Below are positions 27,591-62,901 of a DNA stretch of 64,000 nt, piece by piece. A program made the translations under genes and the position numbers. This stretch comes from a virus (lineage: Duplodnaviria; Caudoviricetes): IMG/VR virus record IMGVR_UViG_3300001528_000699, positions 1 to 64,000 of that record; one strand, given 5' to 3'. Within the stretch, counting starts at the first letter, position 1. Every line of letters starts with the position of its first letter. A model generated the notes under the pieces. It searched no databases. It was not told where the DNA came from and was given only the letters and a program-made list of their open reading frames with translations.

Positions 27591-27700
27591 CAGATTTTTA
27601 ACAAAACTTTTCTCCGTTTCTTTTTGTAGTTTGATAAACTTTGTGTATCTTTACAGTGTTGAAAATGATGTATAACTAAAAACAATAAGAGATATGAAAG
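27591..27700 (+). repeat. Promoter cassette repeat, copy 2
   Basis: 27631-27700 is identical to 34480-34549, including the ATGAAAG start. Confidence 0.9.
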
Positions 27701-28089
27701 GCTCAAGATTATATAACGACATTGATTTCTCACAACCGGTTGCAACACACATTTACGTTGAAGGTTTATCTCGTATTCAACTAGCAAACGAATCGTTAAA
27801 AGCGATGGCAAGAATCAATCAAGCTGAACAGGGATCGATACGGGATTCATACGAACTCGCATCATCCACGATGAGAGATCGTAGAACATTGATAGAAACG
27901 ATATATGAGGATGGGTACGTGATGTATAACGATGGCTGGTTTATTGTTGAATGCGATGAGAATGGAACTCTTTATGTTGACGTGACAGGTCTTGCGATGA
28001 AGAAATGCCCGGAATACAATGATATGAAATACTTTGTAAGCGAAGGGTTGGAACCTGAATGTAATGATTATGTTTACGCTAGAAGATAA
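27694..28089 (+). CDS. Early hypothetical protein; untagged paralog of the cargo domain of 50453..51031
   Basis: ATHI, ELASS, YNDGW.IVE, LYVDVTG.AM and SEGLE shared. Confidence 0.8.
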   Translation: MKGSRLYNDIDFSQPVATHIYVEGLSRIQLANESLKAMARINQAEQGSIRDSYELASSTMRDRRTLIETIYEDGYVMYNDGWFIVECDENGTLYVDVTGLAMKKCPEYNDMKYFVSEGLEPECNDYVYARR

Positions 28090-43660: not shown

Positions 43661-43682
43661 GTTTATACCCGTTATAATCGAT

Positions 43683-44192
43683 TTATTTTTCTTTCTTGAG
43701 CAAATATATCGAGGTGTAGTTTTCTCTCGGTCCACTCTTTTCCATCGCTTTTAAAATCTTGCTTAGGGCCAGTTTTCCATCCTTGTCATCGATAACGAGA
43801 ACGTCTTTCTTGGTCATGTAATAGTTACATGTATCAACTGACTGGCTGCCGTAGGTTTCGTTATTGAAGATGAACTTTCCTTTCCCGTTAAACACGCCGA
43901 CCTCGACCCATTTATCCCTGTTCCACTTGAAATCGGTGGTCAGAACCGCCTTCCATTCCCCTCTCGGGGTGGCGATAAGTTTGAGGGTGGCCGAGATAGC
44001 CGATTCCTTGTAGGTGAACGTGCTATCCCGATTGTTCACGTCATACGCTCCTATATAGAGATGCTGGTAGGAGCCTTCATCGACCTTGTACTTGCCCTTG
44101 CACTCGTACCATTCATTATACATGCTCGAACCCATTGAAATGAAGGATGCGATTCCTAGCACGACAACTAATATCCAAATTAACGCTTTCAT
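43683..44192 (-). CDS. Membrane-anchored protein, paralog of 44215..44700
   Basis: N-terminal TM; shared GKGxFI, DTC.YY, VI.DK.G.L.L and Y..IY.LKK. Confidence 0.7.
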   Translation of the reverse strand: MKALIWILVVVLGIASFISMGSSMYNEWYECKGKYKVDEGSYQHLYIGAYDVNNRDSTFTYKESAISATLKLIATPRGEWKAVLTTDFKWNRDKWVEVGVFNGKGKFIFNNETYGSQSVDTCNYYMTKKDVLVIDDKDGKLALSKILKAMEKSGPRENYTSIYLLKKEK

Positions 44193-44214
44193 GATCTTTG
44201 TTTTTAGAGATTCG

Positions 44215-44700
44215 TTATTTGATTCTTTTATTTTTCTTTAACCCGTAAATGGCAACGTATTCCTCGTCTTTTTCCGTTTTGGCGTTTATTCTCAACCATC
44301 TTGTCAAGGATAAAACACCTTTCTTGTCTTCTATTATCACGCTCCCGTTTCCAAGTATCTCGTAATAGCAAGTATCCGTTTGTGTCACCCACGTTTTAGG
44401 GTTCATGAACTCGCCTATGAAATGACCTTTCCCGTCAAGAATACCAGATTCAAGATAGGTGAGTCCGAAAACAGCCAGCTCGGTTGTTAAACTTGCTCTT
44501 TGCGTTCCGTTAGGAAGAGTGTTTACTCTTAAATACCCGGTCCAAACCCCTTCATCGAAAATAAAGGAATTATCACTATCTCCCGGTAGGCATTTACCCA
44601 CCATCGTGATATCGTACCTACCTTCACTTAATTTTGAATTATCACATGCCGCGAATAACATCACGGCTAAGAACGCTAGTAAAATGTTAATTGTTTTCAT
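44215..44700 (-). CDS. Lipoprotein
   Basis: Signal peptide with lipobox LFAA|C followed by DN. Confidence 0.75.
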   Translation of the reverse strand: MKTINILLAFLAVMLFAACDNSKLSEGRYDITMVGKCLPGDSDNSFIFDEGVWTGYLRVNTLPNGTQRASLTTELAVFGLTYLESGILDGKGHFIGEFMNPKTWVTQTDTCYYEILGNGSVIIEDKKGVLSLTRWLRINAKTEKDEEYVAIYGLKKNKRIK

Positions 44701-44740
44701 AATTCTCTTGTTTTTAAAATATTAATAATTTTGTTCTGTT

Positions 44741-44775
44741 TCAACGATGTAAAGATACACGTTGTTTATTTATCA
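44741..44775 (-). promoter_or_regulatory. Phage promoter TAAAC-AACG-TG-TATCTTTAC (minus strand)
   Basis: Reverse complement matches the repeated motif; drives the lipoprotein operon. Confidence 0.75.
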
Positions 44776-44836
44776 TCCAAATGTTTTCGGAGAAAAGTTT
44801 GATGGATAAGATCTATCAAATCAAATTGGATGTAAC

Positions 44837-44925
44837 GGTAAAACACCCTTCGCATTGATTACAAGGATGTTTTACCACATTGAGAGTTTATTCCCATTTT
44901 GGAATAAACTCTCATAATCAATGTG
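44837..44925 (-). other. Double-hairpin structured element
   Basis: Stems 44837-44850/44863-44876 and 44881-44894/44901-44914. Confidence 0.65.
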
Positions 44926-44931
44926 TTCATA

Positions 44932-45243
44932 TTACTTTTCTTCACTCTCATCCTTTCTTCTTCTTTTCCTTTTAGGACACAGTACATCTTGGATCTCATC
45001 TATCTCTTTCTTGATCTTTTTGGCTTGGAGAGATAGGGTTCTTACCTGTTCATTTATCTCGTCTATCTCTTTTTTGCGCTTGTTGTATGCTTCTCTTAAA
45101 GTAATCGTTTCCTCGCATTGATCAAGAGCGGCGGATTCAAGGGCGGCATCACGAACCATTTCAGTTAAATTTTTGTATTGCCTGATTTTCCTTCCCAATT
45201 TTTCCTGTAATTTTAATTTCTCATCATCTTGTAAAGTGTTCAT
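44932..45243 (-). CDS. Hypothetical coiled-coil protein
   Basis: ORF overlapping the upstream gene. Confidence 0.6.
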   Translation of the reverse strand: MNTLQDDEKLKLQEKLGRKIRQYKNLTEMVRDAALESAALDQCEETITLREAYNKRKKEIDEINEQVRTLSLQAKKIKKEIDEIQDVLCPKRKRRRKDESEEK

Positions 45244-45811
45244 AATCTAATAATTTATCGGTTACATATAATATATTTGTTCTGTTTGTCGGCTTGATAT
45301 TGATCAAACCTTTATTGTATAATTTGTTGATATTTATTCTCATTGAATTTCTACTGACCATTCCTAACTTACCGGCTATAGTTTCATTCGCCCAATTAAA
45401 TTCCTTTCTGTCATAAAAATAGGATACAACCAGCGCGATGACATATAGCTGTGTAAAATTTAATTTATGGACTTTGTTTAGCGAGAATAACCAAGTTGGG
45501 AATGATAAATAGGTTTCATTGTTTTCGGCGATAAGCGTTTTTCTTAGCAGCCATTTATCGTTTTCCATTTGAAATTTCCTCGATTCATTATCCCAGAAAA
45601 GAATGTCGTTATATTTTTTGATTAAAATATTTAATTGCGGATATGAATACACAGATAATTTAGAGTACTGAAGAAGAAAATCACGCCTACTTTTTACTTT
45701 TATCTCGGTTTGAAGGGTAAGGATTGATGATATAAAGAACTCGCCTTCCAGCGTTAGCCCTAACTTTGAATAGTCATAATTATAAATAAGAATATTTCTT
45801 CCTTTTTTCAT
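45224..45811 (-). CDS. Winged-HTH protein, possible replication initiator
   Basis: LNFTQLYVIALV...WANETIAGKLGMVSRNSMRININKLYNKGLI; adjacent to iteron-like repeats. Confidence 0.55.
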   Translation of the reverse strand: MKKGRNILIYNYDYSKLGLTLEGEFFISSILTLQTEIKVKSRRDFLLQYSKLSVYSYPQLNILIKKYNDILFWDNESRKFQMENDKWLLRKTLIAENNETYLSFPTWLFSLNKVHKLNFTQLYVIALVVSYFYDRKEFNWANETIAGKLGMVSRNSMRININKLYNKGLINIKPTNRTNILYVTDKLLDYEHFTR

Positions 45812-46071
45812 AAGAGTGTCAAGTTAAATCTAATCGAATTTTGGAAATGGCAACATCCAGCGATTAGAAGGCTGACAAAACCTATGAAACCAGAAATTGC
45901 CATTTCCAACTGTAAAAATACGATGAAATTTTTGGATAAACAACAAATATACAAAGTTTATTTAGAAAATCGCTCCAAAATGACCGAGTAAAAAGGTTGT
46001 ACATATAAATATTGGGTAAAAAAGTCACCACAGCAATCCCAAAAATGACCGAACAAAAACAAGAAATTTAA

Positions 46072-47315: not shown

Positions 47316-49049
47316 ATGAGTAGAAAGGTAAGAAATAACAATTCGGCGAGGGAACAATCCACGGGTTACGACAAGGTGATAAAGAGCATCGCCTCCATGT
47401 CATTCTCGGAGCTCAACTCGCTAGGCGAGGCTATCCCTACCATCTTGAACTCGAAATTACAGGCTTCACTCGCATCGGATGACGTGGAGAAGGCGATAGA
47501 GGCTGGGCTGTACGTGGAGAAACAACGTATCAGATCCACCGAGCAGAACAAATCCATTTTCTTCCTACCCGATAGCATCGCTTATTCGGGGCGTGGGTAC
47601 AAGGAAACTCTGAGCAGGATATCGTTTCAGACCCTTCAGAGGATGGGTAACCTCTATTGCGTGAAAAATGTCATATCAACCCGCATCGAGCAGATAACTC
47701 GTTTCCTGAAATTTTCTAACGATGAACAGAAGGAAGGGTTCACCATTCGAAAGAAGAAATCCTTGTTCGATTCGGGAGAGGATCGAGGGAAAATGACCAA
47801 AGGCGAGAGAAAAAGGGTAGAGAGAATAGTTAACTTCCTAGAGAACGGGGGAGAGACGGATAAGTGGGAGATGGCGGATTCCTTCGTTACCTTCGTGAGA
47901 AAGATCATGCAGGATTCACTCTCCATCGATCAGCTCGCTTTCGAGATAACCAGAACGAGGGGTCAGGAGCTTCATCAATTCAAAGCGATAGACGGGAGCA
48001 TGATACGGTTCCTCGATACCATCGACCCTAATTACGCTTCGCAATTCGAGAGGTACAGGTATAAAGGTTATCTCCCCAAATACTGTCAAGTTTTCGACCA
48101 GCAAATCGTTTTCAACAAGCAACTCGGTACTTACGTGATGTACTATCCGTGGGAGCTTGGGTTCGGGGTGAGAAACGTTGGAACGGATATTTGGCAGAAC
48201 GGGTACGGGAGAAGCGAGCTTGAATCATTGATAGAGATAATTACCTATATCCTTAACGGGGTACAGTATAACGGTAACTTCTTCAAGAACGGGTCAAACC
48301 CGAAAGGGTTCGTTAATATAAAAAACATGAATACGAACTCGACGGCGTTAAACGATTTCAAACAGAAGTGGAGACAGATGCTTACGGGTACTGAAAACGC
48401 TTGGAAATTGCCTGTTTTCTCAGGGTTGGACGTGGAGTGGATTCCGATTGGTGTCAATAACAAGGACATGGAGTTTGATAACTGGACCAAGTTCTTGATA
48501 GTTCTCCTATGCTCCGTTTACCGGATAGACCCGAGCGAGCTGGGATTCCAGTTCAAGGAAGCAGCTAACGTGTTCGGGCAGGACGGTCAGAAAGCTCGGT
48601 TGGATCACAGCCGCCAGAAAGGTTTGTACCCACTCCTAATATTCCTTCAGGATATCATTAACAAGTTTATCGTGTCCGAGCTCGACGAGGAGATGGAGTT
48701 CGCGTTTACTGGGATAGAGGTGGAGGACGAGGAGAAACAGGTTAAACTTGACGCTGATAAACTTTCAGCCGGTATGGTATCCATGCAAGACATGTTCAGA
48801 AAATACTCGGGGAGGGAGTTCGATGAGAACAAGGACATAATCCTCAACCAGGTGTACCAAACCCAGAAGCAAATGTCGATGTACGGTGGCGAGGGGATGA
48901 ACCAGGTTGTTGACGAGCAAACGGGCGAACCTGAAGCGGGAGTTCCGAATCCCTTCGAGGAGATGGAGAGGAGCATGACCTCTAACCCTATTTTCGAGAA
49001 GGCTTGCGAGTTCATAGATAAAAGTTTCAACGATGACAACGAGGGATAG
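47316..49049 (+). CDS. Portal protein
   Basis: GYGRSELE, YNGNFFKNGSNPKG, WKLPV, DMEF..W, YRIDPSELG, GLYPLL. Confidence 0.88.
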   Translation: MSRKVRNNNSAREQSTGYDKVIKSIASMSFSELNSLGEAIPTILNSKLQASLASDDVEKAIEAGLYVEKQRIRSTEQNKSIFFLPDSIAYSGRGYKETLSRISFQTLQRMGNLYCVKNVISTRIEQITRFLKFSNDEQKEGFTIRKKKSLFDSGEDRGKMTKGERKRVERIVNFLENGGETDKWEMADSFVTFVRKIMQDSLSIDQLAFEITRTRGQELHQFKAIDGSMIRFLDTIDPNYASQFERYRYKGYLPKYCQVFDQQIVFNKQLGTYVMYYPWELGFGVRNVGTDIWQNGYGRSELESLIEIITYILNGVQYNGNFFKNGSNPKGFVNIKNMNTNSTALNDFKQKWRQMLTGTENAWKLPVFSGLDVEWIPIGVNNKDMEFDNWTKFLIVLLCSVYRIDPSELGFQFKEAANVFGQDGQKARLDHSRQKGLYPLLIFLQDIINKFIVSELDEEMEFAFTGIEVEDEEKQVKLDADKLSAGMVSMQDMFRKYSGREFDENKDIILNQVYQTQKQMSMYGGEGMNQVVDEQTGEPEAGVPNPFEEMERSMTSNPIFEKACEFIDKSFNDDNEG

Positions 49050-49763: not shown

Positions 49764-50243
49764 ATGGGATTTATAGAAGAACAAATACAGAAAAATATAG
49801 CGAATCGAGTTGCTATTGAGAAAGCGACGGGTAAAGAATTTACCGAATCCGATTGCTTGGATTTATTGGAGAAAGCTGGAAAAGCTGCTCAAATGGGTGA
49901 GGTTCGTACATGGAACGGAAAAGAATACATCAAGACACCAAAGGGATGGAGACCGAAACCGAAAGGTTACAAGGAAGGTGAGAAGAAACAGGAAGTTACC
50001 GAAGCTGGAAACCCGGTTGGAAAACCTGAATCAGTGACATCTAAAAAAGTGACTGATGGATTTAAGGTTGGTGATCGAGTTATGTATCAAGGTAAGCTCA
50101 TGGAATTGACTCGTATTAGCAAGGATGGTCGGTTCCAAAATGGTATCGAGATGAAATTCGTGAATGAAGGTGATTCAACACCAACCGGTAGTAAAACATT
50201 ACAGGGTAATATGATGTACGCTAAACCTGTCAAGGAAAAATAA
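49764..50243 (+). CDS. Tagged putative internal head protein with SH3/KOW-like cargo
   Basis: LLEKA-GKAAQMGEVRTWNGKEYIKTPKGWRP tag; FKVGDRVMYQG. Confidence 0.65.
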   Translation: MGFIEEQIQKNIANRVAIEKATGKEFTESDCLDLLEKAGKAAQMGEVRTWNGKEYIKTPKGWRPKPKGYKEGEKKQEVTEAGNPVGKPESVTSKKVTDGFKVGDRVMYQGKLMELTRISKDGRFQNGIEMKFVNEGDSTPTGSKTLQGNMMYAKPVKEK

Positions 50244-50252
50244 TTATATATT

Positions 50253-50456
50253 ATGAATAAGAAAATATCCGGTATAGATATTAAGACTGTTAGACCGGTC
50301 GTTAAAAAGGAAAAGGCGGGGGTTAAAGACCCCGTCCGCTTTCCTGATGTCATAAACGGGTACGAGAACGAGAGCAAGAGGCTGTTCAACGAGGAGTTGA
50401 ACCTTCTGTTCGCTGACGTGGTGAAAAAGATGGTTGGTATTATAAAGGATAAGTGA
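50253..50456 (+). CDS. Hypothetical protein
   Basis: ORF in head operon. Confidence 0.6.
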   Translation: MNKKISGIDIKTVRPVVKKEKAGVKDPVRFPDVINGYENESKRLFNEELNLLFADVVKKMVGIIKDK

Positions 50457-51031
50457 TGGAAAATCTTGATATAAAAGCGTTGGATGTTATCGAGAAATCC
50501 GGTAAACCGGCGCAGATAGGTGAAATCCGTGTTTGGAACGGAAAGCGGTATCACAAAACCCCTAAAGGCTGGCGACCGGTTCCAAAAGGTTATCGTGAAA
50601 ACAAGCAAGATCCGGCGAAGATCAAATATCAAAACAAAGACGAAAGCTATAAACCGAAAGCCACCCATATCTGGGTCGATGGATTGAAGGATAATAGAGA
50701 GAAAGCCCTTCGCGTTATGCAAGCGATGAAGGATATTCAAGGTGGTTACGCTCAAGGAACTTTAACCAATCCATCTGAACTCGCTAGCTCTTATGTTAAG
50801 AAAAACGATGGAGGAAGATGGATAAGTGATAATAACGGTGATAAAACGTTAATACAAGCTGTTCTCACTGGCGATGAGGTTGATTATAACGATGGATGGT
50901 ATATCGTTGAAACGGACGGCGATGTTTTATACGTTGATGTGACCGGACAAGCTATGAATGAGAACCCGGATGATTACAAGAATATGGAATACGTTACCAG
51001 TGAGGGATTGGAGTCCGGGAAAGAAGAATAA
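50453..51031 (+). CDS. Tagged putative internal head protein; cargo homologous to 27694..28089
   Basis: VIEKS-GKPAQIGEIRVWNGKRYHKTPKGWRP tag plus shared domain. Confidence 0.75.
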   Translation: MMENLDIKALDVIEKSGKPAQIGEIRVWNGKRYHKTPKGWRPVPKGYRENKQDPAKIKYQNKDESYKPKATHIWVDGLKDNREKALRVMQAMKDIQGGYAQGTLTNPSELASSYVKKNDGGRWISDNNGDKTLIQAVLTGDEVDYNDGWYIVETDGDVLYVDVTGQAMNENPDDYKNMEYVTSEGLESGKEE

Positions 51032-51042
51032 AATAATTAATC

Positions 51043-53079
51043 ATGTTATTCAACAACGAGCAAATACAGGATATACTTGAATTGGTGGATTTCAGGTTCG
51101 CTGATCTGGTGTGGAAGATATTCGGACCATCTCATTTAACCTCGCAGGACAAGGAGAAGTTGAGAAAGTTCGGGGTGAACCCGTCATCGCTCGTTAAAAA
51201 AATACCGCCCTATTGGGCTAACTGGATGTTTGGCCTTCTATCAGGAAAATTGAATGATTACCAAACCAAGCAAATAACGTACAAGGATCTTCTCGAATAT
51301 CTCGGAAGAAGGCAATACGAGACACCATCTAAAAGGGAGATAGAATCGTACGAGGTGGCCTGCAATCGCACGTACGGTTATTTGAAAGGGTTGGGTGATA
51401 AGATGAAGAAGGATATAACGAGTTACATATCTGATACCGAACTTCAAACTAGGATGGAGCAGGATCGTGTCATAAAGGAGGGGATAAAAAGAGGTATCTT
51501 GGAAAGGGATACGACAAAACTCATAGCTTCTAAAATAAGTAACCAGTTGGATGACTGGTCAAGGGATTGGAACAGGATAGTGGAGACGGAGTATCAGGGC
51601 GTTTTTAACATGGGTAGGGTACAATCCTACATGAGAGAAGGAGACGGAGAGAATACGCTAATTTATTTCGACGTGTTTCCTGGCGCATGTTTTCCAACCT
51701 CTGATACAGAATTTTTAACGGATGAGGGGTTTAAATTGTTAAAAGATATTAGGGGGGATGAAAAAGTTGCGTCATTTAATATTGAAACGAATACCTTGGA
51801 ATATACTGAAATTGAAAGTAAAATTCAATATTGGTATGAGGGCGTGATGAATGAATATAAGCATCATTCCCTTGATATGATCTGCACCCCTAATCATAAA
51901 CAATTAATTGGGATAGATTACCACCCCAAAGAAGGTGTTTACACAAAAAATCAATTAATTGATAGTTCGGAAGTTCCTTCCTTAACAAAACGGGCATATA
52001 TGTATTATACCGTTGATAATTGGGTTGGGCATGATGATGAAAAAATTGAAATTGCAGGGAAAAGGTTTGATACAAAGCCTTTTGTGAAAATGATGGGTTG
52101 GTATTTATCGGAAGGTTCAGTGGTTCCAAGAAAAAGTGACAAGAATGGTCATTATAATTCAACTCAGTTATGCATTTCGCAATCAAAAGTTAGTAATTTT
52201 GATGAAATCAAGGATTGCCTAGATAAAACATTTTGCCAAAAAGTGTATTACAGTTCGTCTCGGAATAATATTGATGGTCATTTTGTCGTATTGTTGGATA
52301 AATCCTATGATCCGTTCGTTAAGTGGTTAAAATCATTAGGTGATAGAGCGCATACGAAAACAATTCCAAAAGAAATAAAATTATTATCGAAAAAATATCT
52401 TTTTGAATTTCTGCTATCTTATTGGAAAGGAGATGGTTTCGGTAGGGGTGGGACTTTTATGGATGGAAATCGTCATATTGTTACGTCATCAAAGCAAATG
52501 GCGGATGATTTATCGGAGATAATTTTAAAGTGTGGTTACCGACCTTCATTAAAAATTATCGATAAGAGGGGTGTAACAACATTTTCAAAGAAAAGAAATA
52601 AGTCGTTTACCACCAGGCACCTGATTTATAAAGTGGGTATTTTGATAAGTAAACATTTTAATTCAATATATAAACATTTTAATGTGATTGATAATTGGAA
52701 AGGCGAGGTTGGTTGTTTGCAATTAAAAAAGAATTCGACATTATATATAAGGAGAAGTGGCCAATCAATTTGGAGCGGGAATTGTAGGCATTGTATAAGG
52801 TTATACTTAACCGGTGGAATAGGTAGCGAACCTAAATTGTTCACTATCAAGGAATTGATGGGAAACGGAACTAATATAGGTAGAAAGGTAAATGATTGGA
52901 AACCAACGGTTATAACCAGTATTCACCCCTTCTGTAGGTGCTTGGCTCGCAGGTATATGAAAGGCGATGTCTGGGACAAGGAAACGAGATCATTCAAGCA
53001 ACCTGAACATTACGAGAGAAAGGTGGCACCTAAAGTGAAAGTCAGAATACAGGTAGGTGATAAAGTTTTCAACGTTTAA
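51043..53079 (+). CDS. Head morphogenesis protein (MuF/SPP1 gp7-like), intein-interrupted
   Basis: RDWNRIVETE, GA|intein|CRHCIRLY, HPFCRC. Confidence 0.8.
   Translation: MLFNNEQIQDILELVDFRFADLVWKIFGPSHLTSQDKEKLRKFGVNPSSLVKKIPPYWANWMFGLLSGKLNDYQTKQITYKDLLEYLGRRQYETPSKREIESYEVACNRTYGYLKGLGDKMKKDITSYISDTELQTRMEQDRVIKEGIKRGILERDTTKLIASKISNQLDDWSRDWNRIVETEYQGVFNMGRVQSYMREGDGENTLIYFDVFPGACFPTSDTEFLTDEGFKLLKDIRGDEKVASFNIETNTLEYTEIESKIQYWYEGVMNEYKHHSLDMICTPNHKQLIGIDYHPKEGVYTKNQLIDSSEVPSLTKRAYMYYTVDNWVGHDDEKIEIAGKRFDTKPFVKMMGWYLSEGSVVPRKSDKNGHYNSTQLCISQSKVSNFDEIKDCLDKTFCQKVYYSSSRNNIDGHFVVLLDKSYDPFVKWLKSLGDRAHTKTIPKEIKLLSKKYLFEFLLSYWKGDGFGRGGTFMDGNRHIVTSSKQMADDLSEIILKCGYRPSLKIIDKRGVTTFSKKRNKSFTTRHLIYKVGILISKHFNSIYKHFNVIDNWKGEVGCLQLKKNSTLYIRRSGQSIWSGNCRHCIRLYLTGGIGSEPKLFTIKELMGNGTNIGRKVNDWKPTVITSIHPFCRCLARRYMKGDVWDKETRSFKQPEHYERKVAPKVKVRIQVGDKVFNV
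51688..52782 (+). mobile_element. Intein with LAGLIDADG endonuclease (365 aa)
   Basis: CFPTSDTEFLT, CTPNH, GWYLSEGS, SYWKGDG, ends WSGN followed by +1 Cys; AT-richer than flanks. Confidence 0.9.
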
Positions 53080-53141
53080 AATTGTTTAAACCGAAATAAA
53101 GACTTATTTTTATCCGAAATTAGTGATAAAATAGAAATATA

Positions 53142-53777
53142 ATGGAAGAAACAAGTACTCTCGTGAAGTTGATAGCTGATAACGGTATAACGGTCGTGCT
53201 AAGTGCTGTCACGATAATCATATTCTTGAACGTTTTCCGGAAAGCTACTAGAAACTGGGAGAGGATGGAAAAGAAGAATGATCACCTCATCGACTTGATA
53301 GTGGCGAAAGGAACTGCCGGTGATTACATGGAGAAACAGATCGAGATAAATAACAACATGCTTTCCATATTGAAAGAGATAAGGGAGGGTGCGACGAAAG
53401 AATGCACGATAGAGCAAGTCAAAACAACCACTAACGCTCTTTTCGATCTCGCCAAGTTCACCATGTTCGAGGAGGTGAAACGGATAAAAAAGGAGAATCA
53501 TCTAAATAACGAGGCGGCTATCGAAACGAAAGTGAAAACGATCGTTCATCAAAGAATAAATGACAGGAAAAGCAAACTGTACAATTACAACTGGAAGGGA
53601 AAGCCTTTAAGCGAGTTTAACTCCGTTTCGAAGGATGATATAGTCGATATAATGATAGGGGAGCTCTACGCGCCTGACGATTTCTCGGAAGAGAGGGTGA
53701 AAAGGAATATGGAGCTTTTCTATGATAACATGAAACTTGATTTGTTCAATGAAATTGTGGCGTATAATAATTTATAG
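53142..53777 (+). CDS. Single-TM membrane protein, holin-like candidate
   Basis: N-terminal TM (GITVVLSAVTIIIFL) plus soluble domain. Confidence 0.45.
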   Translation: MEETSTLVKLIADNGITVVLSAVTIIIFLNVFRKATRNWERMEKKNDHLIDLIVAKGTAGDYMEKQIEINNNMLSILKEIREGATKECTIEQVKTTTNALFDLAKFTMFEEVKRIKKENHLNNEAAIETKVKTIVHQRINDRKSKLYNYNWKGKPLSEFNSVSKDDIVDIMIGELYAPDDFSEERVKRNMELFYDNMKLDLFNEIVAYNNL

Positions 53778-53778
53778 T

Positions 53779-55506
53779 ATGAACTGGTTGAAAAAGATAC
53801 TTGGAATGACGGCGTGTAGCAAGGAGGAGAAGGTAGCCCGCTACATGGAATTGTTGAAAAGCATGGATGTTATCGAATCGGAAGCTGACGAGCTGGCCGA
53901 TTCTTTCCGTTTAAACAAATCGATGGTTGATAACGTGAAGGGTTGTGACATGGAAGAGATGGATAAGAGATTGGAAAGATTTGATGAGTTCATGCTGTGT
54001 CATAAGAAGGATGTTCACGAGCTACTGAAGGCGAAGATGGAAGTGGAGGATGAGATGAAGAAATTGAAGGAAGACCCCTCTATCTCTAAAGATATCAATG
54101 ACATCGATACTTATTTTAAAGCCAAGAAAGAATACAAGGCACGGAAATCAACGTTGAAAGAATTTAACGGTTCGATCAGGAAAGCGAAAGAAGGTCCTGT
54201 CAAGTACTCGGATGCCTTGGTGTTCGATTGTAACGGGAAATTGTTGATCCTTCACAGGATACAGGATGGCAAGCATTGCGAGGGAGGTGAATGGTGCATC
54301 CCCGGTGGTCACGTTGATCCGGGTGAGAACCATCGTGAAGCGGTAGAGAGGGAATTGAAAGAAGAAACCGGGTTGAAATTGAGAATGGAACCTGATCCGG
54401 CTGGATTCTATAACGACGATGAAGCGGATATTCATTATTACCGTGCCTTCACTGAAGAGAGTGAACCCTCTATCCTGGTTGATAGCACGGAGCATGATGG
54501 CGTGGAATGGATAGATTTGAGAGATATAGACAAGTACGATTTCATATTCAACATGAAAGATAACCTTAAAAAATTACTCGGCATGGAAGAGAAAGAAGAG
54601 AAAGGACCGGATACCATAGAGATACTCGCTAAAGCGTTAAAATCCGGTCAGATAACACCGGCTGTTTTCAGGGAAGCGGTCGAGAAAGCTAAAAATAAAA
54701 CTTATTTCTCGGAGAAGGAACGTGGAAAACTCGCTAAAGAAGGCGAAGCGATGCCTAACGGGAAATATCCAATAAGAAACGCTCAAGATTTGAAGGATGC
54801 CATTAAACTGGTTGGGGCGTCATCCATGCCGGAAGGTGAGGTAAAATCGTGGATCAAGAAAAGAGCGAAAGAGTTGAACCTTGAAAACGAGCTACCAGAA
54901 GATTGGAGGGATGTCGAGAAAGCGGTGGGAACGGAACAGGCGGAAACTATCGCGAGAGAATCGCTAGACGGTGAAATGAAGGATGATCGGGTTGAGAAAT
55001 CGTCCTTCTCTATTCGCGTTGATTTCGATGACTTGGAGAAAGCCGATCTTTTCAAATCCATGGTGGAGAAATATAAATCGGAGGGTGATCTCGGTATAAC
55101 GAGTGTTGACGTGATCGATATTGATGAAAACGAGGATAAAGAAATTTTCCGGGATTACCTGAACTTCATCGAGGGTGCTAAAACGAGAATCAAGAACCTG
55201 CACTGGACGGAAGAGGATAACGCCAAGCACGTTTACCTAGATGAATTATCTGAAGAGGTGTCAAAATTCGAGGATAAGATAGCGGAAGCGGGTCAAGCGA
55301 ATTTCGGTCGGTTCAAGGATGGTGAGATAGTGGGTGATGATATCCAAACGAGCGATCCTATCATGATCGTTGACCTTTTACTTGATATGACGAGCTCTTT
55401 CCGGTCCAAGTTGAATGAAAGACTCGTTTATAACGGTGAGATTTCATGGGTGGATGATTTCCTCGCCACTTTAAAGCAGATCAAATATCGTTTGCAATTA
55501 CATTAA
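53779..55506 (+). CDS. Multidomain head-associated protein: coiled coil, NUDIX, DUF6582-like and ferritin/Dps-like
   Basis: Nudix box GGHVDPGENHREAVERELKEETG; AMPNGKYPIRN..DL..AI; NLHW...HVYLDEL...DKIAE. Confidence 0.75.
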   Translation: MNWLKKILGMTACSKEEKVARYMELLKSMDVIESEADELADSFRLNKSMVDNVKGCDMEEMDKRLERFDEFMLCHKKDVHELLKAKMEVEDEMKKLKEDPSISKDINDIDTYFKAKKEYKARKSTLKEFNGSIRKAKEGPVKYSDALVFDCNGKLLILHRIQDGKHCEGGEWCIPGGHVDPGENHREAVERELKEETGLKLRMEPDPAGFYNDDEADIHYYRAFTEESEPSILVDSTEHDGVEWIDLRDIDKYDFIFNMKDNLKKLLGMEEKEEKGPDTIEILAKALKSGQITPAVFREAVEKAKNKTYFSEKERGKLAKEGEAMPNGKYPIRNAQDLKDAIKLVGASSMPEGEVKSWIKKRAKELNLENELPEDWRDVEKAVGTEQAETIARESLDGEMKDDRVEKSSFSIRVDFDDLEKADLFKSMVEKYKSEGDLGITSVDVIDIDENEDKEIFRDYLNFIEGAKTRIKNLHWTEEDNAKHVYLDELSEEVSKFEDKIAEAGQANFGRFKDGEIVGDDIQTSDPIMIVDLLLDMTSSFRSKLNERLVYNGEISWVDDFLATLKQIKYRLQLH

Positions 55507-55511
55507 AAATA

Positions 55512-55541
55512 ACGGGTCTTAACAGGACCCGTCCTTATATT
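55512..55541 (+). terminator. Hairpin, possible terminator
   Basis: ACGGGTC/GACCCGT stem, weak T tail. Confidence 0.4.
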
Positions 55542-55549
55542 TCATAACC

Positions 55550-57700
55550 ATGTTGAGTGAATTATTTAACGATATAAAGAAATCGAAGAACGTCGCCTCT
55601 ATCGGTGAGAAGCGGAAGTGGGGAGATAGGTGGTACATGAAGACCCCTCGCGGATGGGTGCTCACCAATGAAGAAGTGAATAAATTAACCGAGGAAGCTT
55701 TTCGTGCTAGAGAGGAGGAACTTGAAAGGAGAATAAATGAAGATCCCGAATTCCGTGCCCGCTATCAGAAAGAGCACGGTGAGGGATACACACCTTTCGT
55801 TCATTTAAAAGGAAATATCTCGGTAAAAGAAGTCGCTGGCATTCGGTTAAGAAATAGCGGTATTGACACGAAAGCTAAGAACTTGATGGCGCTTTTTCTA
55901 CCGAAGGCCGGGCAATGGGTTATCCCGATGCTGGGAGTGAACATTCCTCTAACCGATAAGATGAGGGAAGTGATCAGGGAACGGGGAAGATGCGAGCTGT
56001 ATTTCAGGAAAACGAAGAACGCGGCACCCGTTCGTGTGATGGTTGAAATGGATGAACGTGGTCGTTTTAAATTCACGGAAGCCACGAAAAGAGAAGGGAA
56101 AGTAGATGAATGGAAACTGTCTGTTGGTTCGGCTCTTGATCATGGATTATCCGGTCCTCATTTTTACAGTATCGACCTTGTCATGCCTTTCAAAGATGAT
56201 ATAGAGAAAGCGAAAGGTGCCGCTATCGGAGAGGAAAGGGAGTGGGGTGGAAAGGTTTACGTTAAAACTGTAAAAGGGTGGAGACCTAAAGGAAAAGGCG
56301 CGAAATCATCAGAGGATGATGAGGTCAAAACAGATCAATCTTCCAAAAATGAAATTCAGGGCGGCGATAAAAAAGCGATTCTTGAAGGGTACGCGTCTCA
56401 AGCGACTGACAAGCAACTTGAAACCGCCATGAATAAACCCGGTCAATCGGAAGAGGTGAGAAATATCGCCAAGCAAGAACTTGAAAATCGAGGGAAGGAA
56501 GTGAAGGAAGTTGAGGATGAAATTTCTTCGGCTTTAAATAAGCTGTTACAAAGCGATGAATTTGATGATGAATTTAAGAGGTTGCTTCAATCAAAACTCG
56601 ATGAGAGAACAGCTAAAAAACAGGAAAAAGAGAGTGAATCGGGAGAGAAGAAAGAGTTTGAATCATTCAAGAAGGAAGTAACTGAAAGGTTGGATAAACT
56701 TGAACAAGAAAATTCAGGTCACAAGCAGATAAAGAAAACGGGAATCATCGTTGACGGAAAGAAAATTTTTATCACGATGGATGGCGATCGTTATCAAGCG
56801 AAGAAAGGTGGTGAGACCTTGAAATCAGAACCGAATGAATCTCTGTCTAGTTTCAAGGATAAGGTGAGGGAAAAGTGGGGTGAAAAACAGGGGGAAGAAA
56901 AGGGCGAGCTAGAAAGAGATAAATTACCTGAAACACCCGAAATTGATATTCCGTTAGAAAGGATTAAAAAGGCAATAAGTGAGGGTGATTATAAAAACAA
57001 TTGGTTTTATAAAATGGTAATGGAAGATTCCGATGAAGCTCTCAGTTTCAGGAATGATAGAGAATTTCAACTTCTTTCAAACGCGGCGTTGCTTGAAAAA
57101 GGATTACGCCCTGTAATGGCACCCTTTGCGTTCACGGAATATGGTGGTGTGCAGTATAAGAGTTATGATCAGTATTTCATGGATTCGAACGATTCATTGA
57201 ATATTTATAAGAAGAAATTCAGGCCTTCAAGATCGATTTACACCAAGGCGGAAAAGGATGCGATGGAGGATTATAGTGGTGCGTATTTTGAATCCGTTCG
57301 AAGTTTTAATATTGATGGAACAGTGCCGTCATATCATGAAAAAGAGAAGGATGCGATTCGCCATACATCCGAATTAATTAAATCTTTTATAGATAGGAAT
57401 CGATTGAAAGAGAATGTTATTCTGAGTCGTCGCTTAAATTTTAAGGAGGGTGAAGAAAATCCATTTTTAAATCTTAAACCGGGTGATACATTTACCGACC
57501 CTTCATTCGGTTCATATTCACTCCGTCAATTATCAAGTTTTGGTCATTTTCAAATAACGTTACTCGCGAAGAAAGGTCAAGCTATATCAGCGATAAAATC
57601 AAATTGGCTGGGAGAACAAGAACTTCTTGCCCAAAAAGGATTGAAGTTTAAGGTTCTTGAAACCGGATATAAATCTATTGCGGTTGAGATAGTTGATTAA
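55550..57700 (+). CDS. Doubly tagged head protein with C-terminal VIP2-like ADP-ribosyltransferase (T4 Alt analogue)
   Basis: Two GE.R.W..YxKT..GW tags; LSRR, FTDPSFGSYS and GEQELL R-S-E motifs. Confidence 0.8.
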   Translation: MLSELFNDIKKSKNVASIGEKRKWGDRWYMKTPRGWVLTNEEVNKLTEEAFRAREEELERRINEDPEFRARYQKEHGEGYTPFVHLKGNISVKEVAGIRLRNSGIDTKAKNLMALFLPKAGQWVIPMLGVNIPLTDKMREVIRERGRCELYFRKTKNAAPVRVMVEMDERGRFKFTEATKREGKVDEWKLSVGSALDHGLSGPHFYSIDLVMPFKDDIEKAKGAAIGEEREWGGKVYVKTVKGWRPKGKGAKSSEDDEVKTDQSSKNEIQGGDKKAILEGYASQATDKQLETAMNKPGQSEEVRNIAKQELENRGKEVKEVEDEISSALNKLLQSDEFDDEFKRLLQSKLDERTAKKQEKESESGEKKEFESFKKEVTERLDKLEQENSGHKQIKKTGIIVDGKKIFITMDGDRYQAKKGGETLKSEPNESLSSFKDKVREKWGEKQGEEKGELERDKLPETPEIDIPLERIKKAISEGDYKNNWFYKMVMEDSDEALSFRNDREFQLLSNAALLEKGLRPVMAPFAFTEYGGVQYKSYDQYFMDSNDSLNIYKKKFRPSRSIYTKAEKDAMEDYSGAYFESVRSFNIDGTVPSYHEKEKDAIRHTSELIKSFIDRNRLKENVILSRRLNFKEGEENPFLNLKPGDTFTDPSFGSYSLRQLSSFGHFQITLLAKKGQAISAIKSNWLGEQELLAQKGLKFKVLETGYKSIAVEIVD

Positions 57701-57724: not shown

Positions 57725-57901
57725 ATGATGGAAGAGAATAACTTAATTAGAACGGTAAAAGAAGTGGATATCACCGGCATTAAATTTAATTATAACAGCG
57801 GTAAATCTAATCATGATAATTCTATCCTGATCAATGCTATTAAAAAGATCGGTGATGGTATTGAAGAATTGGAACGGGATAAAACCGGTAAAGAAAGTTA
57901 G
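57725..57901 (+). CDS. Small protein (58 aa, not in ORF track) downstream of the ART
   Basis: MMEENNLIRTVKEVDITG...; fills the intergenic gap. Confidence 0.55.
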   Translation: MMEENNLIRTVKEVDITGIKFNYNSGKSNHDNSILINAIKKIGDGIEELERDKTGKES

Positions 57902-59761: not shown

Positions 59762-60550
59762 ATGATAGAGAATAGATTTAATTTTTGGGTCCCGATTGAT
59801 ATAGAGAAAGCGAGATCCGACAAGGAAAAAGAAGATGATTCCCGCTACGATAACATGGTGTTCGAGGGCGTGGCGAGTGATGATAGCGAGGATGATGAAG
59901 GGGAATCGATGAATCCAAGCGGGTTCGTGCTGGATAGATTCCTGAAAAGCGGTTTATTGAACCTTGACCACCTAACCTCGAGAGCGAAAGAGAATAAGTC
60001 TCGGTTTTGGATAGGTGAGCCGATTGACGCTTACGTGAAGGATAATAAATTCTTCGTGAAAGGAAAATTGTGGAAGAAATCGCCAGAAGCGAGGGCGTTC
60101 TGGGATAAGTGTATCCAGATGTCGGAGTCCGGTTCATCCCGTAAACCGGGAATGTCGATAGAAGGGAAAGTGATAGAGAGAGATAAAATGAACCCAAGAA
60201 AGGTAAACAAGGCATTGATCACGAACGTGGCTTTAACCTTTCAACCGGTGAACACGAACTCTTTCTTCGATATCGTGAAAGGTCGTCAATCAAAAGATTT
60301 CATCGATTACGAGTTTGAAAGCGACAAGGATTTTGATGAAAATGACAAGGTGATACTTGAATGGGAAGACGAGAGAGGCAACCTCCTGATGCTTGATTCA
60401 AAATTCAAGATCAAGGTGAAGAAAAAGCCAGAGTACAAGGTGGAAACGATCGAAAAGATGGCGAAAAGTTTCTCGGAAGGATCCGTTTCAGAGAGGGTTT
60501 ATATCGATTTCATCAAAAAGATAGAGAAAAATTTCCGTTTATCAAATTAA
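59762..60550 (+). CDS. Prohead protease
   Basis: FEGVASD...DEGE, LNLDH, IGEP, GMSIEG, NVALT.QPVN. Confidence 0.85.
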   Translation: MIENRFNFWVPIDIEKARSDKEKEDDSRYDNMVFEGVASDDSEDDEGESMNPSGFVLDRFLKSGLLNLDHLTSRAKENKSRFWIGEPIDAYVKDNKFFVKGKLWKKSPEARAFWDKCIQMSESGSSRKPGMSIEGKVIERDKMNPRKVNKALITNVALTFQPVNTNSFFDIVKGRQSKDFIDYEFESDKDFDENDKVILEWEDERGNLLMLDSKFKIKVKKKPEYKVETIEKMAKSFSEGSVSERVYIDFIKKIEKNFRLSN

Positions 60551-60602: not shown

Positions 60603-61346
60603 ATGAAACCTATTACGAGTGAAATAGTGCAGGAACTGCAAAAAAGGGGGATTTCTTTGGATCAATACTGTGGCGACGAGGTCGTGAAAGCGTTGTTGGA
60701 CGCTGAGTTCGATCACGATTATATTTTGAAGAGTATCGATAACGGAGACATCACCACTTTCGCTAAATCAAAGTACACTGAGAAAGAAGAAATCGAGTAC
60801 GATGAGAATAAAGCGGGAGAGCACGAAAGACGTGATTTCGAGGAAGGAAAAGAAGAAGGCGAGAAAGAGGAAAAAGAAGAAATCGAAAAGAAGAAAAAAG
60901 ATAAGAAGGATGTTGAGAAATCGGAAGAAGATAAAGGTGAAGAGATGAAGAAATCCATCGAGAGTGACCTTTATAAATCTCAACGTGAATTTTTCGAAGA
61001 GGTTAACGCTTCCTTGAGCGAGATGAAGGATTTGATGAAATCCATGGGAGAGGAGCTTGAAACCTTGAGAAATCAACCGATGCCTTTCCGTTCTGTCGAT
61101 AAAGGTGCCGTTTTGGAGAAATCTTTCGGTGTTAAAACAACCGACGAAGGAAAGAAAATTTTATCCAAATCCGCTCATCGTGAACCGTTAAAACGGGTTA
61201 TGACCGAGTGCTTCGAGAAAGAGGAAGATAACGAGATGAAGAAATCTCTCGCTAATGATATCATGTCTTACTCTACCGGTACCATGTCACTTTCACAAGC
61301 GACCATCGATTACCTGAGTAAGAAAGGAATTGAAGTAGTTGAATAA
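60603..61346 (+). CDS. Scaffold protein
   Basis: E/K-rich coiled coil between protease and capsid; many xxKS sites. Confidence 0.7.
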   Translation: MKPITSEIVQELQKRGISLDQYCGDEVVKALLDAEFDHDYILKSIDNGDITTFAKSKYTEKEEIEYDENKAGEHERRDFEEGKEEGEKEEKEEIEKKKKDKKDVEKSEEDKGEEMKKSIESDLYKSQREFFEEVNASLSEMKDLMKSMGEELETLRNQPMPFRSVDKGAVLEKSFGVKTTDEGKKILSKSAHREPLKRVMTECFEKEEDNEMKKSLANDIMSYSTGTMSLSQATIDYLSKKGIEVVE

Positions 61347-61377: not shown

Positions 61378-62901
61378 ATGGTTGGAGAACAATTTGATTT
61401 TAATGGAGTAACTCCGGGAATCGACCGGGGAGAGTTCTTATCCGCCGATATTCTGAAGGCCATGGAAGCCGGGTTACAAACCGGTATGCAATACGCTAAC
61501 ACCTTGAATAACGGTGGCGGCTTGAAAGTGGAGTCTTTGGATGGCGTCATCAAGGTGTTGGAATACACTGAGAAACAATTGGTGTTGTGGAAAAACATCG
61601 GTAAAAAGAAAATTTACAACACCGTTCATCAATACAACCAGTTAGTGAAATACGGTAACAATATCGGGATCGCTAACTTGGAAGGTGAAACACCTCAATT
61701 CACCGATTCTCAATACAGACGGAAACCGATCATCACCAAGTTCTTGGGAGTTAGCGGTCAGGTAACGCATCCCGCAACCTTGGTTCGTATCGCCGCTGAA
61801 GGGGATTCAATGTACGAATTAGAGGTTCGTAATAAAACCTTGTTATTGTTACAAAACCTGAACGTTGCCCTGTCTAACTTCGATAGTAGCTGTATCGACG
61901 AGGAGTTTTCCGGTATCTGGCAGCAACACGTTGAGGGTATCCTCGATATTTACGGAGGTATGTCAGGAAAAACTTCCGAGGCGATCCTTGACACCTATTA
62001 TAACGATCCGGCTGTTGTTAACGCTGATGGTAATATCTTGAGCGACTTCAGCTTGCAAGAAGCAACGAACACCATCGTTAACTTGCGTTACGGTTTCGCT
62101 GACAAGATCATCGCCAATCCGATCGTTTTCACTGACTACGTGAACGCTCATACAGCTAACAAGGTGTTGAATGTGAACGGTGTATCTGGAAGTATGATGA
62201 ATGCTCGTGCCGGGTTACAAGTAACCAGCGTTGCAACTCAGTTCGGTGACATCGATTTCATGGCCGACCCGTTCTTCGATAGCAAACCGGCTCGTTTGGC
62301 AACTTCACCAGCTACTAACGACAAAGCCCCGGCCGCCCCGGTTAAAGATAACACAGCCGCAGTTGCGGTGGTAAACAACGATACGAAGACCAATTTCACG
62401 AACCACGAAGGATCTTACCTGTACGCTGTTGCCGCCAAGAATCGCTATGGAGAAAGTGCGTTGACTAAATTGAACGACGTTGCTCAAGCAGTGACAAAAA
62501 CTCAATCCGTTGATTTGAAATTCACCGCGGCCGTTGATTCAGTTTACCCGACTCAAGCATTCGTGATCTACCGTACGGAAGTTAACCCGGCAAACGCCGC
62601 AACCGCTAATTACTACCCGATTTTCCAAATCCCGGTATCTCAGTTAGCTTCAGGTTACGACGGTGCTGCCGCTAACGCTGTTCGTGATAGAAACCGTTCT
62701 ATCGCAGGAACTCACTCGGCTTTGGTATTCAAGATGGATGATTCCTTGATCCAATACTTGCAATTGGCTGACACGATGAAGATGGAGTACGCTATCACTT
62801 CACCGAGTAGACGCTTCTCTATCTTGAATTACGGTACGCCGGTACTGTACGCTCCTGGTAAGTTTGTGAGAATTTGCAACATTGGACGTAAAGCGGAATA
62901 A
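61378..62901 (+). CDS. Major capsid protein (SPO1/Twort-like)
   Basis: ILKA...GGGLKVESLD..IKVL, TVHQYNQ, YGTPVLYAP.K..RI.NI. Confidence 0.88.
   Translation: MVGEQFDFNGVTPGIDRGEFLSADILKAMEAGLQTGMQYANTLNNGGGLKVESLDGVIKVLEYTEKQLVLWKNIGKKKIYNTVHQYNQLVKYGNNIGIANLEGETPQFTDSQYRRKPIITKFLGVSGQVTHPATLVRIAAEGDSMYELEVRNKTLLLLQNLNVALSNFDSSCIDEEFSGIWQQHVEGILDIYGGMSGKTSEAILDTYYNDPAVVNADGNILSDFSLQEATNTIVNLRYGFADKIIANPIVFTDYVNAHTANKVLNVNGVSGSMMNARAGLQVTSVATQFGDIDFMADPFFDSKPARLATSPATNDKAPAAPVKDNTAAVAVVNNDTKTNFTNHEGSYLYAVAAKNRYGESALTKLNDVAQAVTKTQSVDLKFTAAVDSVYPTQAFVIYRTEVNPANAATANYYPIFQIPVSQLASGYDGAAANAVRDRNRSIAGTHSALVFKMDDSLIQYLQLADTMKMEYAITSPSRRFSILNYGTPVLYAPGKFVRICNIGRKAE

What the first reader, a model, noticed from the sequence alone, without database searches (positions are those of the whole stretch)
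49764..57700. Modular tag-plus-cargo system: candidate capsid-packaged, injected effector cassette
Seen: a ~30 aa motif, [IL][EK]K[AS]-x4-5-[IM]GExRxWxxxxYxKTxxGW, occurs four times in three head-module genes (~49863-49970, ~50486-50593, ~55571-55660, ~56195-56299). Each copy is followed by an unrelated domain: SH3/KOW-like, a domain shared with an early gene, an unknown domain, and finally an ADP-ribosyltransferase. Each copy begins at a K[AS] site like those in the scaffold and capsid leader. Established: T4 loads internal proteins through a shared capsid-targeting sequence, and gp21 protease processes them and Alt before ejection into the cell. Inference: this motif is a portable packaging/ejection address that lets the phage swap payloads such as anti-defence or host-takeover factors.
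Basis: partly seen in the sequence, partly recalled or inferred. Interest (0 to 1): 0.9.

Follow-up and report, generated by a model that had tools for sequence, protein, structure and literature searches.

The report
Portable tag on phage head cargo proteins
A 40-residue module, a likely protease cut site followed by a small basic beta-sheet, sits in front of four unrelated domains in the head genes of a 100-kb phage. It recurs in more than 800 protein clusters from related phages with the downstream domain swapped, so it is probably a handle for loading and processing proteins carried in the capsid, though no experiment shows this yet.

Summary
Exactly four copies of the motif occur in the whole 99.5-kb phage genome, all in three head-module genes, with profile E-values of 1e-23 to 1e-28.

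- **What the module is.** It consists of a site reading hydrophobic-x-K-[A/G/S], a short coil, and a three-stranded basic beta-meander (GExRxWxGxxYxKTxxGW).
- **How widespread it is.** A profile search of 1.84 billion proteins found 846 clusters, carrying one to four copies per protein. Pfam, NCBIfam and PHROGs do not name it.
- **What it is attached to.** Carriers hold ADP-ribosyltransferase, PBECR1 RNase, NUDIX, kinase, pyrophosphatase, topoisomerase and many unknown domains. This is the known "polyvalent protein" repertoire.
- **Where it is encoded.** 25 of 29 IMG/VR loci have a portal, MuF-like, NUDIX or protease homologue within 3 kb; of seven other contexts, five lie in the portal-proximal head module.
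- **Evidence for cargo swapping.** A phage with a 93% identical portal keeps leader and tag but carries different cargo. One cargo also exists untagged as an early gene.
- **Evidence for a cut site.** The site motif is enriched about sixfold across head-module proteins only, which fits a prohead-protease code.

Packaging, cleavage and ejection remain inference. The SH3/KOW call was not confirmed. A first-reader note on an overlapping window of this genome describes the same stretch.

The parts
49764..50243 (+). 159-aa tagged protein: 30-aa leader with two hydrophobic-EK-A sites, the tag, then an 87-aa unidentified cargo
   Evidence: Cargo is replaced in relatives with 83-93% identical portals.
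49854..49979 (+). tag copy 1
   Evidence: E 2.6e-27
50453..51031 (+). 192-aa tagged protein: 16-aa leader, the tag, then a 142-aa cargo
   Evidence: The same cargo sits inside polyvalent proteins of L006 and L009.
50477..50602 (+). tag copy 2
   Evidence: E 7.4e-28
55550..57700 (+). 716-aa doubly tagged protein: tag, unknown alpha/beta domain, tag, charged linker, ADP-ribosyltransferase
55562..55687 (+). tag copy 3, at the N-terminus of the 716-aa protein
   Evidence: E 1.6e-26
55685..56188 (+). unknown alpha/beta domain between the two tags. The L005 orthologue has PBECR1 in this slot.
   Evidence: pLDDT 80-90 over most of the domain; no Pfam hit; no similarity to the PBECR1 segment; fold search inconclusive, Z up to 4.5
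56186..56311 (+). tag copy 4, internal
   Evidence: E 2.5e-23
56312..56956 (+). Glu/Lys-rich linker
   Evidence: composition; no family
56957..57697 (+). C3/VIP2-type ADP-ribosyltransferase domain with R, SxS and ExE motifs
27694..28089 (+). untagged paralogue of the 192-aa cargo, in the block of small genes outside the head module
59762..60550 (+). head maturation protease, the candidate enzyme for the hydrophobic-x-K|[AGS] sites
   Evidence: phrog_1028 at E 4e-39. Homologues occur in 7 of the 8 tag-bearing loci L005-L014 (none in the short L009 and L012 stretches, present on the L012-type genome in L005).
53779..55506 (+). NUDIX plus DUF5856 protein with four hydrophobic-EK-[AS] sites in the inter-domain linker; candidate processed polyprotein. 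Its homologues in L010 and L011 carry tags.
47316..49049 (+). portal, which marks the start of the head module
61378..62901 (+). major capsid protein. The I-L-K27-A28 site near its N-terminus is invariant in five diverged homologues.
60603..61346 (+). scaffold-like protein with two hydrophobic-EK-S sites

Best explanation
The module is a processing-and-retention handle for proteins carried inside the capsid of one lineage of roughly 60-170-kb phages (the window's own genome is 99.5 kb). These phages share a portal, a phrog_1028-type prohead protease and an SU10-like capsid protein. Each unit reads: optional short leader, then hydrophobic-x-K|[A/G/S], then about 6 coil residues, then a basic three-stranded beta-meander, then cargo. 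Proposed sequence of events: (1) the proteins are made late from the head module and enter the procapsid; (2) the prohead protease cuts at the site, removing leaders and splitting multi-tag proteins into single units; (3) each unit keeps the beta-meander at its new N-terminus, and this holds it inside the head, on the inner capsid surface or on the packed DNA, until it leaves with the genome; (4) the cargo (ADP-ribosyltransferase, RNase, NUDIX and others) then acts on the host. Shown here: the module, its spread, its restriction to head modules, cargo swapping, the site enrichment and the predicted fold. Inferred: steps 1 to 4.
For: There are four copies and only four in the genome. A profile search finds 846 clusters at E<=1e-3 and 128 at <=1e-10, in proteins of 53-2224 aa with 1-4 copies. 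Among 150 cluster representatives there are 220 tags. Of these, 94% start with the site, 75% of proteins have the first tag within 50 residues of the N-terminus, inter-tag spacing is domain-sized (median 255 aa) and mean net charge is +5. The Lys of the site is one of only two invariant columns in 27 diverse tags. Cargo families are PBECR1, MuF_C, ADPrib_exo_Tox, NUDIX, InPase, Kinase-PolyVal, LPD1, Topoisom_I, ART-PolyVal and RadC. Tags lie co-oriented with and close to the portal in L005, L006, L010, L011 and L014, and 25 of 29 IMG/VR loci have a head gene within 3 kb. Seven of the eight loci share the protease family, and the portal and capsid protein families recur wherever the stretch reaches them. 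Cargo swaps behind a constant leader and tag are seen in L018 (portal 93% identical) and L022. PBECR1 and an unrelated domain occupy the same slot between two tags. The 192-aa cargo occurs tagged, embedded in polyvalent proteins, and untagged as an early gene. Hydrophobic-EK-[AGS] is seen 15 times against 2.5 expected in head proteins and 5 against 4.7 elsewhere. Hydrophobic-x-K-[AS] is seen 44 times against 17 in head proteins and 30 against 35 elsewhere. Permuted control motifs are flat. The same enrichment holds in L005, L006 and L010. AlphaFold places the site in coil and the meander at pLDDT 84-86. The only structural match is a 34-residue chain of the PhiKZ capsid. It is probably gp184, a protease-processed beta-rich fragment on the inner capsid surface (PMC11297242). 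Precedents are the T4 capsid-targeting sequence and Alt (PMC9026906) and predicted packaged polyvalent proteins (PMC5512222).
Against: There is no virion proteomics, N-terminal mapping or ejection assay for any carrier. The one cultured relative, Chryseobacterium phage MA9V-3, has none. The site enrichment could reflect another constraint shared by head proteins. The PhiKZ match is weak (Z 2.2, E 0.14), and assigning chain I to gp184 is my inference. One tag family (P0183-like) sits beside a holin about 3.5 kb upstream of the portal, not strictly inside the head module. One tag per polyprotein would suffice for targeting alone, so the role of the meander after cleavage is a guess.
Confidence: 0.5

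Rival explanations
1. The beta-meander is a nucleic-acid-binding mini-domain that forms part of effector function. It would put each enzyme on the ejected phage DNA or on host DNA or RNA, as an escort, and would not be a capsid address. This partly overlaps the best explanation if DNA binding is how the cargo travels.
For: Mean net charge is +5, Arg/Lys and three aromatic residues are conserved, and a basic tail often reads RPKxKG. Many cargos act on nucleic acids: Topoisom_I, PBECR1, RadC and NUDIX.
Against: The tag is also joined to ADP-ribosyltransferase, kinase, pyrophosphatase and many small unknown domains. The same cargo exists untagged when encoded outside the head module. Tags were found in late or head modules only. 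No known DNA-binding fold was matched; the PC4 rows have probability <=0.08.
Confidence: 0.25
2. The module is only a structured inter-domain joint that presents a protease site. The meander would be a docking exosite or spacer, with no role in targeting or retention. It would persist because recombination at conserved joints is how cassettes move.
For: The site and the meander are always adjacent. Swaps break exactly after the tag. Multi-tag proteins have one tag per domain.
Against: The other enriched sites in the NUDIX linker, scaffold, portal and capsid protein lack any meander, so cleavage, if real, does not need it. DNA identity between copies is too low for homologous recombination within a genome. 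Single-cargo proteins with N-terminal tags gain nothing from a mere spacer.
Confidence: 0.15
3. The module binds the host envelope or cell wall, like choline-binding or chitin-binding hairpin repeats. It would act on ejected proteins as they cross the envelope.
For: Weak Foldseek rows point to a chitinase (probability 0.75) and, below probability 0.25, to chitin-binding and choline-binding domains. One tag family lies next to a holin. The 159-aa protein has a weak CBM_5_12 hit.
Against: All of these matches have E above 0.5. Such binders normally work as tandem arrays, whereas here there is one copy per unit. The cargos are cytoplasmic-type enzymes.
Confidence: 0.05

Closest known systems
Polyvalent proteins of phages (Iyer, Burroughs, Anand, de Souza, Aravind 2017; PMC5512222)
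   Same: Multi-domain proteins are encoded beside portal and head genes. They share the same domain repertoire (ART, PBECR1, Kinase-PolyVal, LPD1, InPase, RadC). They are predicted to be packaged, processed and injected.
   Different: That work proposes a built-in metallopeptidase domain as the processing solution. Here, a repeated 40-residue module with a putative prohead-protease site precedes each domain, and it also heads many single-cargo small proteins. Pfam's LPD models do not match the module. I could not check whether it is one of the LPDs listed only in that paper's FTP supplement.
T4 capsid-targeting sequence of IPI-III, and packaged Alt (PMC9026906)
   Same: A shared short element is found on otherwise unrelated proteins carried in the head, next to a prohead-protease site. 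One cargo is an ADP-ribosyltransferase.
   Different: The T4 element is about 10 residues, N-terminal only, upstream of the cut, and discarded. Here the conserved fold is downstream of the cut, about 30 residues long, also internal, and predicted to be retained. The site is hydrophobic-x-K|small, not L/I-x-E|.
PhiKZ and SPN3US head proteins processed by gp175/gp245, especially PhiKZ gp184 (PMC11297242, PMC10052503)
   Same: Many internal head proteins are cut at a short motif. A small beta-rich fragment lying near a cleavage site is anchored to the inner capsid surface while the rest of the protein is flexible. This fragment is the only structural match to the tag.
   Different: The structural match is weak (Z 2.2 over 27 residues) and there is no sequence relationship. 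The phage lineage and the cleavage motif (AXE|) both differ.
MuF-fused polymorphic toxins of temperate phages (Jamet et al. 2017; cited from memory, not read here)
   Same: Variable toxin or effector domains are attached to a constant head-associated element.
   Different: No MuF domain is present in the tagged proteins. The constant element is the 40-residue module, and the MuF-like gene is separate.

Membership tests
Phage polyvalent proteins (Iyer et al. 2017) | Two or more domains of disparate biochemical activity in one polypeptide | tested here: inconclusive
   The window's 716-aa protein has one identified enzyme (ART) plus an unidentified alpha/beta domain. Orthologues P0020 and P0056 have PBECR1 with a C-terminus homologous to the window's ART, and P0207 has ART-PolyVal plus RadC.
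Phage polyvalent proteins (Iyer et al. 2017) | Encoded in a portal or virion-gene neighbourhood of a phage | tested here: met
Phage polyvalent proteins (Iyer et al. 2017) | Delivered into the host together with the DNA | not testable with these tools
   Needs virion proteomics and an ejection assay.
T4-type capsid-targeting sequence | Short N-terminal propeptide lying upstream of the prohead-protease cut | tested here: not met
   The conserved module lies downstream of the hydrophobic-x-K|[AGS] site and also occurs internally, for example at residues 214-254 of the 716-aa protein.
T4-type capsid-targeting sequence | Shared by unrelated head-carried proteins | tested here: met
   The cargos are unrelated to each other, and diverse families occur behind the tag.
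T4-type capsid-targeting sequence | Sufficient to load a foreign protein into the capsid | not testable with these tools
   Needs a tag-reporter fusion experiment.
C3/VIP2-type ADP-ribosyltransferase (Pfam PF03496) | Profile match above the gathering score | tested here: inconclusive
   The window protein has no hit at E<=0.1. It is 44% identical over 261 aa (E 7e-63) to P0003, which scores 30.7 bits against a cut-off of 23.4.
C3/VIP2-type ADP-ribosyltransferase (Pfam PF03496) | R, S-x-S and E-x-E catalytic motifs in that order | tested here: met
   LSRR, SYS and EQE are read in the alignment.
MuF-fused polymorphic toxin | N-terminal MuF domain in the same polypeptide as the toxin | tested here: not met
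   No MuF or Phage_Mu_F hit in any of the three tagged proteins.
PhiKZ gp184-like inner-capsid anchor | Shared fold with the capsid-bound beta fragment | tested here: inconclusive
   8y6v_I is the top and only hit: Foldseek E 0.14 at probability 0.97, and VIA Z 2.2 with rmsd 1.8 A over 27 residues. The chain identity is inferred from PMC11297242.

The most novel reading that the evidence does not exclude
The module is a general, transferable cargo address for a whole phage lineage. Any protein placed behind 'hydrophobic-x-K|small plus beta-meander' would be loaded into the procapsid, trimmed by the prohead protease, parked on the inner capsid wall or on the DNA by the meander, and delivered into the host with the genome. 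This would explain how these phages exchange anti-defence and takeover effectors as plug-in cassettes, and it would offer a ready-made tag for engineering protein-delivering phages.
Probability: 0.35. Interest if true: 0.85.

Novelty: new variant of a known kind. Interest (0 to 1): 0.68.

Why it matters
Which proteins phages carry in their heads, and how they get there, is known for only a few model phages. This module gives a sequence signature that would flag candidate packaged effectors in hundreds of uncultured phage genomes. It also suggests a readable protease code for this lineage. It shows cargo exchange at a defined joint between near-identical phages. One cultured relative, Chryseobacterium phage MA9V-3, makes the idea directly testable. 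If the address function holds, the module could serve as a protein-delivery tag.

Tried and rejected
- **Naming the tag.** Pfam, NCBIfam and PHROGs do not name it; the only trace is a weak hit to phrog_4272, of unknown function.
- **Other look-ups for the tag.** The ESM Atlas feature search gave no usable hit. A PDB sequence search with the tag profile gave only a chance 16-residue match.
- **C-terminal domain of the 716-aa protein.** A PDB sequence search gave nothing, so the ADP-ribosyltransferase call rests on the P0003 bridge.
- **Middle domain as a diverged PBECR1.** BLAST shows no similarity and the fold search is inconclusive. Scattered papain-like and HigB2 rows reach only Z<=4.5 or probability 0.30. 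Remote homology is not excluded.
- **Cultured phages.** megablast and tblastn of the region and of the 716-aa protein against 50,697 phage records found nothing. The tag reaches only Chryseobacterium phage MA9V-3.
- **Prokaryote genomes.** A narrow pattern scan of 185,579 species genomes found no relative. The pattern was strict, so this is weak evidence of absence.
- **Tool limits.** One literature query failed on a too-short search term.
- **Recent DNA duplication or chance as the source of the repeats.** Rejected.
- **Not tested.** Co-folding the tag with portal, scaffold or capsid protein was not possible, because only single chains can be folded here.
Full report
**Setting.** The window is the first 64 kb of a 99,507-bp IMG/VR virus record with direct terminal repeats, rated complete. 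The genes from 46.7 kb onward form a head module on the + strand:
- portal, 47316-49049
- a MuF-like protein interrupted by a LAGLIDADG-type intein, 51043-53079
- a NUDIX plus DUF5856 protein, 53779-55506
- the 716-aa protein, 55550-57700
- a Listeria-Bacteroides-repeat protein
- a head maturation protease, 59762-60550 (phrog_1028, E 4e-39)
- a scaffold-like protein
- an SU10-like major capsid protein, 61378-62901

A six-frame regex scan gives exactly four matches, all in frame in three genes. A profile of the four copies finds only those four in the whole genome, at E 7e-28 to 2.5e-23. The DNA copies have diverged at synonymous positions, so selection acts on the peptide. Each copy starts with hydrophobic-[E/K]-K-[A/S]. 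The four downstream segments are mutually unrelated by BLAST. The cargo of the 192-aa protein has an untagged paralogue at 27694-28089, among the small genes outside the head module. The C-terminus of the 716-aa protein is an ADP-ribosyltransferase. It is 44% identical (E 7e-63) to P0003, which passes the Pfam PF03496 cut-off, and the R, SxS and ExE motifs are in place. The 'SH3/KOW-like' label could not be confirmed.

**Spread of the module.** I widened the profile with tags from two syntenic contigs (A3). An exhaustive search of 1.84 billion cluster representatives then returned 846 proteins at E<=1e-3 and 128 at <=1e-10. They range from 53 to 2224 aa and carry one to four copies. Among 150 representatives there are 220 tags:
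- 94% begin with hydrophobic-x-K-[AGS].
- The first tag lies within 50 residues of the N-terminus in 113 of 150 proteins.
- Spacing between tags is domain-sized, with a median of 255 aa.
- Mean net charge is +5.

In an alignment of 27 diverse tags, the only invariant columns are the Lys of the site and the last Trp. No Pfam, NCBIfam or annotated PHROG family covers the module.

**What it is attached to.** Domains found behind or between tags include PBECR1, MuF_C, ADPrib_exo_Tox, NUDIX, InPase, Kinase-PolyVal, LPD1, Topoisom_I, ART-PolyVal and RadC. Most cargos are unknown. This is the repertoire that Iyer et al. defined for phage 'polyvalent proteins', which they predicted to be packaged and injected (PMC5512222).

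**Where it is encoded.** In L005, L006, L010, L011 and L014 the tagged genes are co-oriented with the portal and lie in the head module. L013 has no detectable portal but has a protease homologue just upstream of its tagged gene. L009 is a 6.3-kb contig whose 5' end encodes a NUDIX-protein C-terminus. Homologues of the window's portal, protease and capsid protein recur across these loci at 25-81% identity, which marks one broad lineage. Of 29 IMG/VR loci taken with only 3-kb flanks, 25 show a portal, MuF-like, NUDIX or protease homologue beside the tag. One tag family (P0183-like) lies next to a holin about 3.5 kb upstream of the portal. A narrow pattern scan of 185,579 prokaryote genomes found no copy. 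The only cultured carrier is the Chryseobacterium myovirus MA9V-3, which has no proteomic data.

**Modularity.** Four lines of evidence show the tag staying constant while the cargo changes:
- In L018 the portal is 93% identical to the window's. Both small genes keep nearly the same leader and tag, but what follows is entirely different.
- In L022 the 192-aa gene is conserved, while the first gene has another leader and another cargo.
- In the large protein, the slot between the two tags holds PBECR1 in the L005 orthologue. In the window it holds an unrelated alpha/beta domain.
- The 192-aa cargo also sits inside the 1070-aa and 1539-aa proteins of L006 and L009.

The pairing of a tagged copy in the head module with an untagged copy elsewhere in the same genome is informative. 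It argues that the tag goes with the place and time of expression, not with what the cargo does.

**The site.** The motif hydrophobic-EK-[AGS] occurs 15 times in the window's head-module proteins, against 2.5 expected from within-protein shuffles (0 of 300 shuffles reach 15). It occurs 5 times against 4.7 expected in the other + strand genes. The looser motif hydrophobic-x-K-[AS] gives 44 against 17 in head proteins and 30 against 35 elsewhere. Permuted or altered control motifs are not enriched. The enrichment repeats in L005 (10 against 2.9), L006 (13 against 2.2) and L010 (17 against 2.8). Sites recur in the NUDIX linker (four in 120 residues), the scaffold, the portal ends and the protease N-terminus. 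They also recur as an invariant K-A about 27 residues into five diverged capsid proteins. This pattern is what a prohead-protease code would leave, as in T4 (L/I-x-E) and SPN3US (A-x-E) (PMC9026906, PMC10052503). No cleavage has been observed here.

**Structure.** AlphaFold models of residues 1-260 of the 716-aa protein (mean pLDDT 68.6) and of the tag alone (71.1) agree. They show a short, low-confidence helix, the site and about 6 residues in coil, then a three-stranded antiparallel meander at pLDDT 84-86. The only structural match is a 34-residue chain of the PhiKZ capsid model 8Y6V. Foldseek gives probability 0.97 at E 0.14. VIA-align gives Z 2.2 with rmsd 1.8 A over 27 residues, the sole hit among 48,161 chains. 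The paper describes one beta-rich minor capsid protein, gp184. It is processed by the gp175 protease, is resolved only as a short piece, and is wedged against a hexamer on the inner capsid surface (PMC11297242). That chain I is gp184 is my inference, and the match is a lead, not proof.

**Reading.** The best explanation (about 0.5) is a processing-and-retention handle. The protease trims leaders and splits multi-tag proteins at the site. Each released unit keeps a basic meander that holds it inside the head until ejection. A DNA-escort role (0.25) overlaps with this and cannot be separated by computation. A mere protease-site joint (0.15) and a cell-wall binder (0.05) are less likely.

**Comparison with the T4 capsid-targeting sequence.** This is not a member of that class, because the conserved element lies on the other side of the cut and also occurs internally. 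It is a new variant within the known theme of capsid-carried, protease-processed effectors. An overlapping window of this genome carries first-reader notes on the same stretch and on the protease code. The looser site pattern that I tested came from those notes.

Noticed in passing
window 51043-53079: The MuF-like head protein is split by an insertion of roughly 360 aa with weak LAGLIDADG_3 and PI-PfuI endonuclease hits, probably an intein. L005 and L006 homologues (about 310 aa) lack it, and in L006 the portal carries an intein instead (Intein_splicing plus LAGLIDADG_3).
   Followed up: partly
window 53779-55506: The NUDIX plus DUF5856 (ferritin/Dps-like) protein has four hydrophobic-EK-[AS] sites within 120 residues of its inter-domain linker, so it looks like a protease-processed polyprotein. 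Homologous NUDIX proteins in L010 (964 aa) and L011 carry the tag itself.
   Followed up: partly
L005:12773-13639: In the PBECR1-type relative, an ADP-ribosylglycohydrolase gene (PF03747) lies just downstream of the tagged protein, whose C-terminus is homologous to the window's ADP-ribosyltransferase. It may reverse or guard against that activity in the producing cell. The window has no such gene at that position.
   Followed up: no
window 57725-57901; L005:12667-12828; L006:13220-13369; L009:5062-5217: A small 49-58-aa ORF always follows the large tagged gene. The three relatives resemble each other, while the window's copy is only 15-23% identical to them. Function is unknown; an immunity or chaperone role is possible.
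   Followed up: partly
L014:6455-9733 and 18070-18324: In an 80-kb relative, a 1092-aa doubly tagged protein carries S-AdoMet lyase and Kyano_Gp96 domains. A Tad2-like (anti-Thoeris) gene lies in the same head module. This fits an anti-defence role for the cargo.
   Followed up: no
window 50253-50456: A conserved 67-aa ORF lies between the two small tagged genes. In L018 it sits after the second tagged gene instead, which points to local rearrangement of this cassette region.
   Followed up: no
window 38000-46000: GC skew flips sign and the genes switch to the minus strand (40923-45811) just upstream of the head module, marking a transcription-unit boundary.
   Followed up: no
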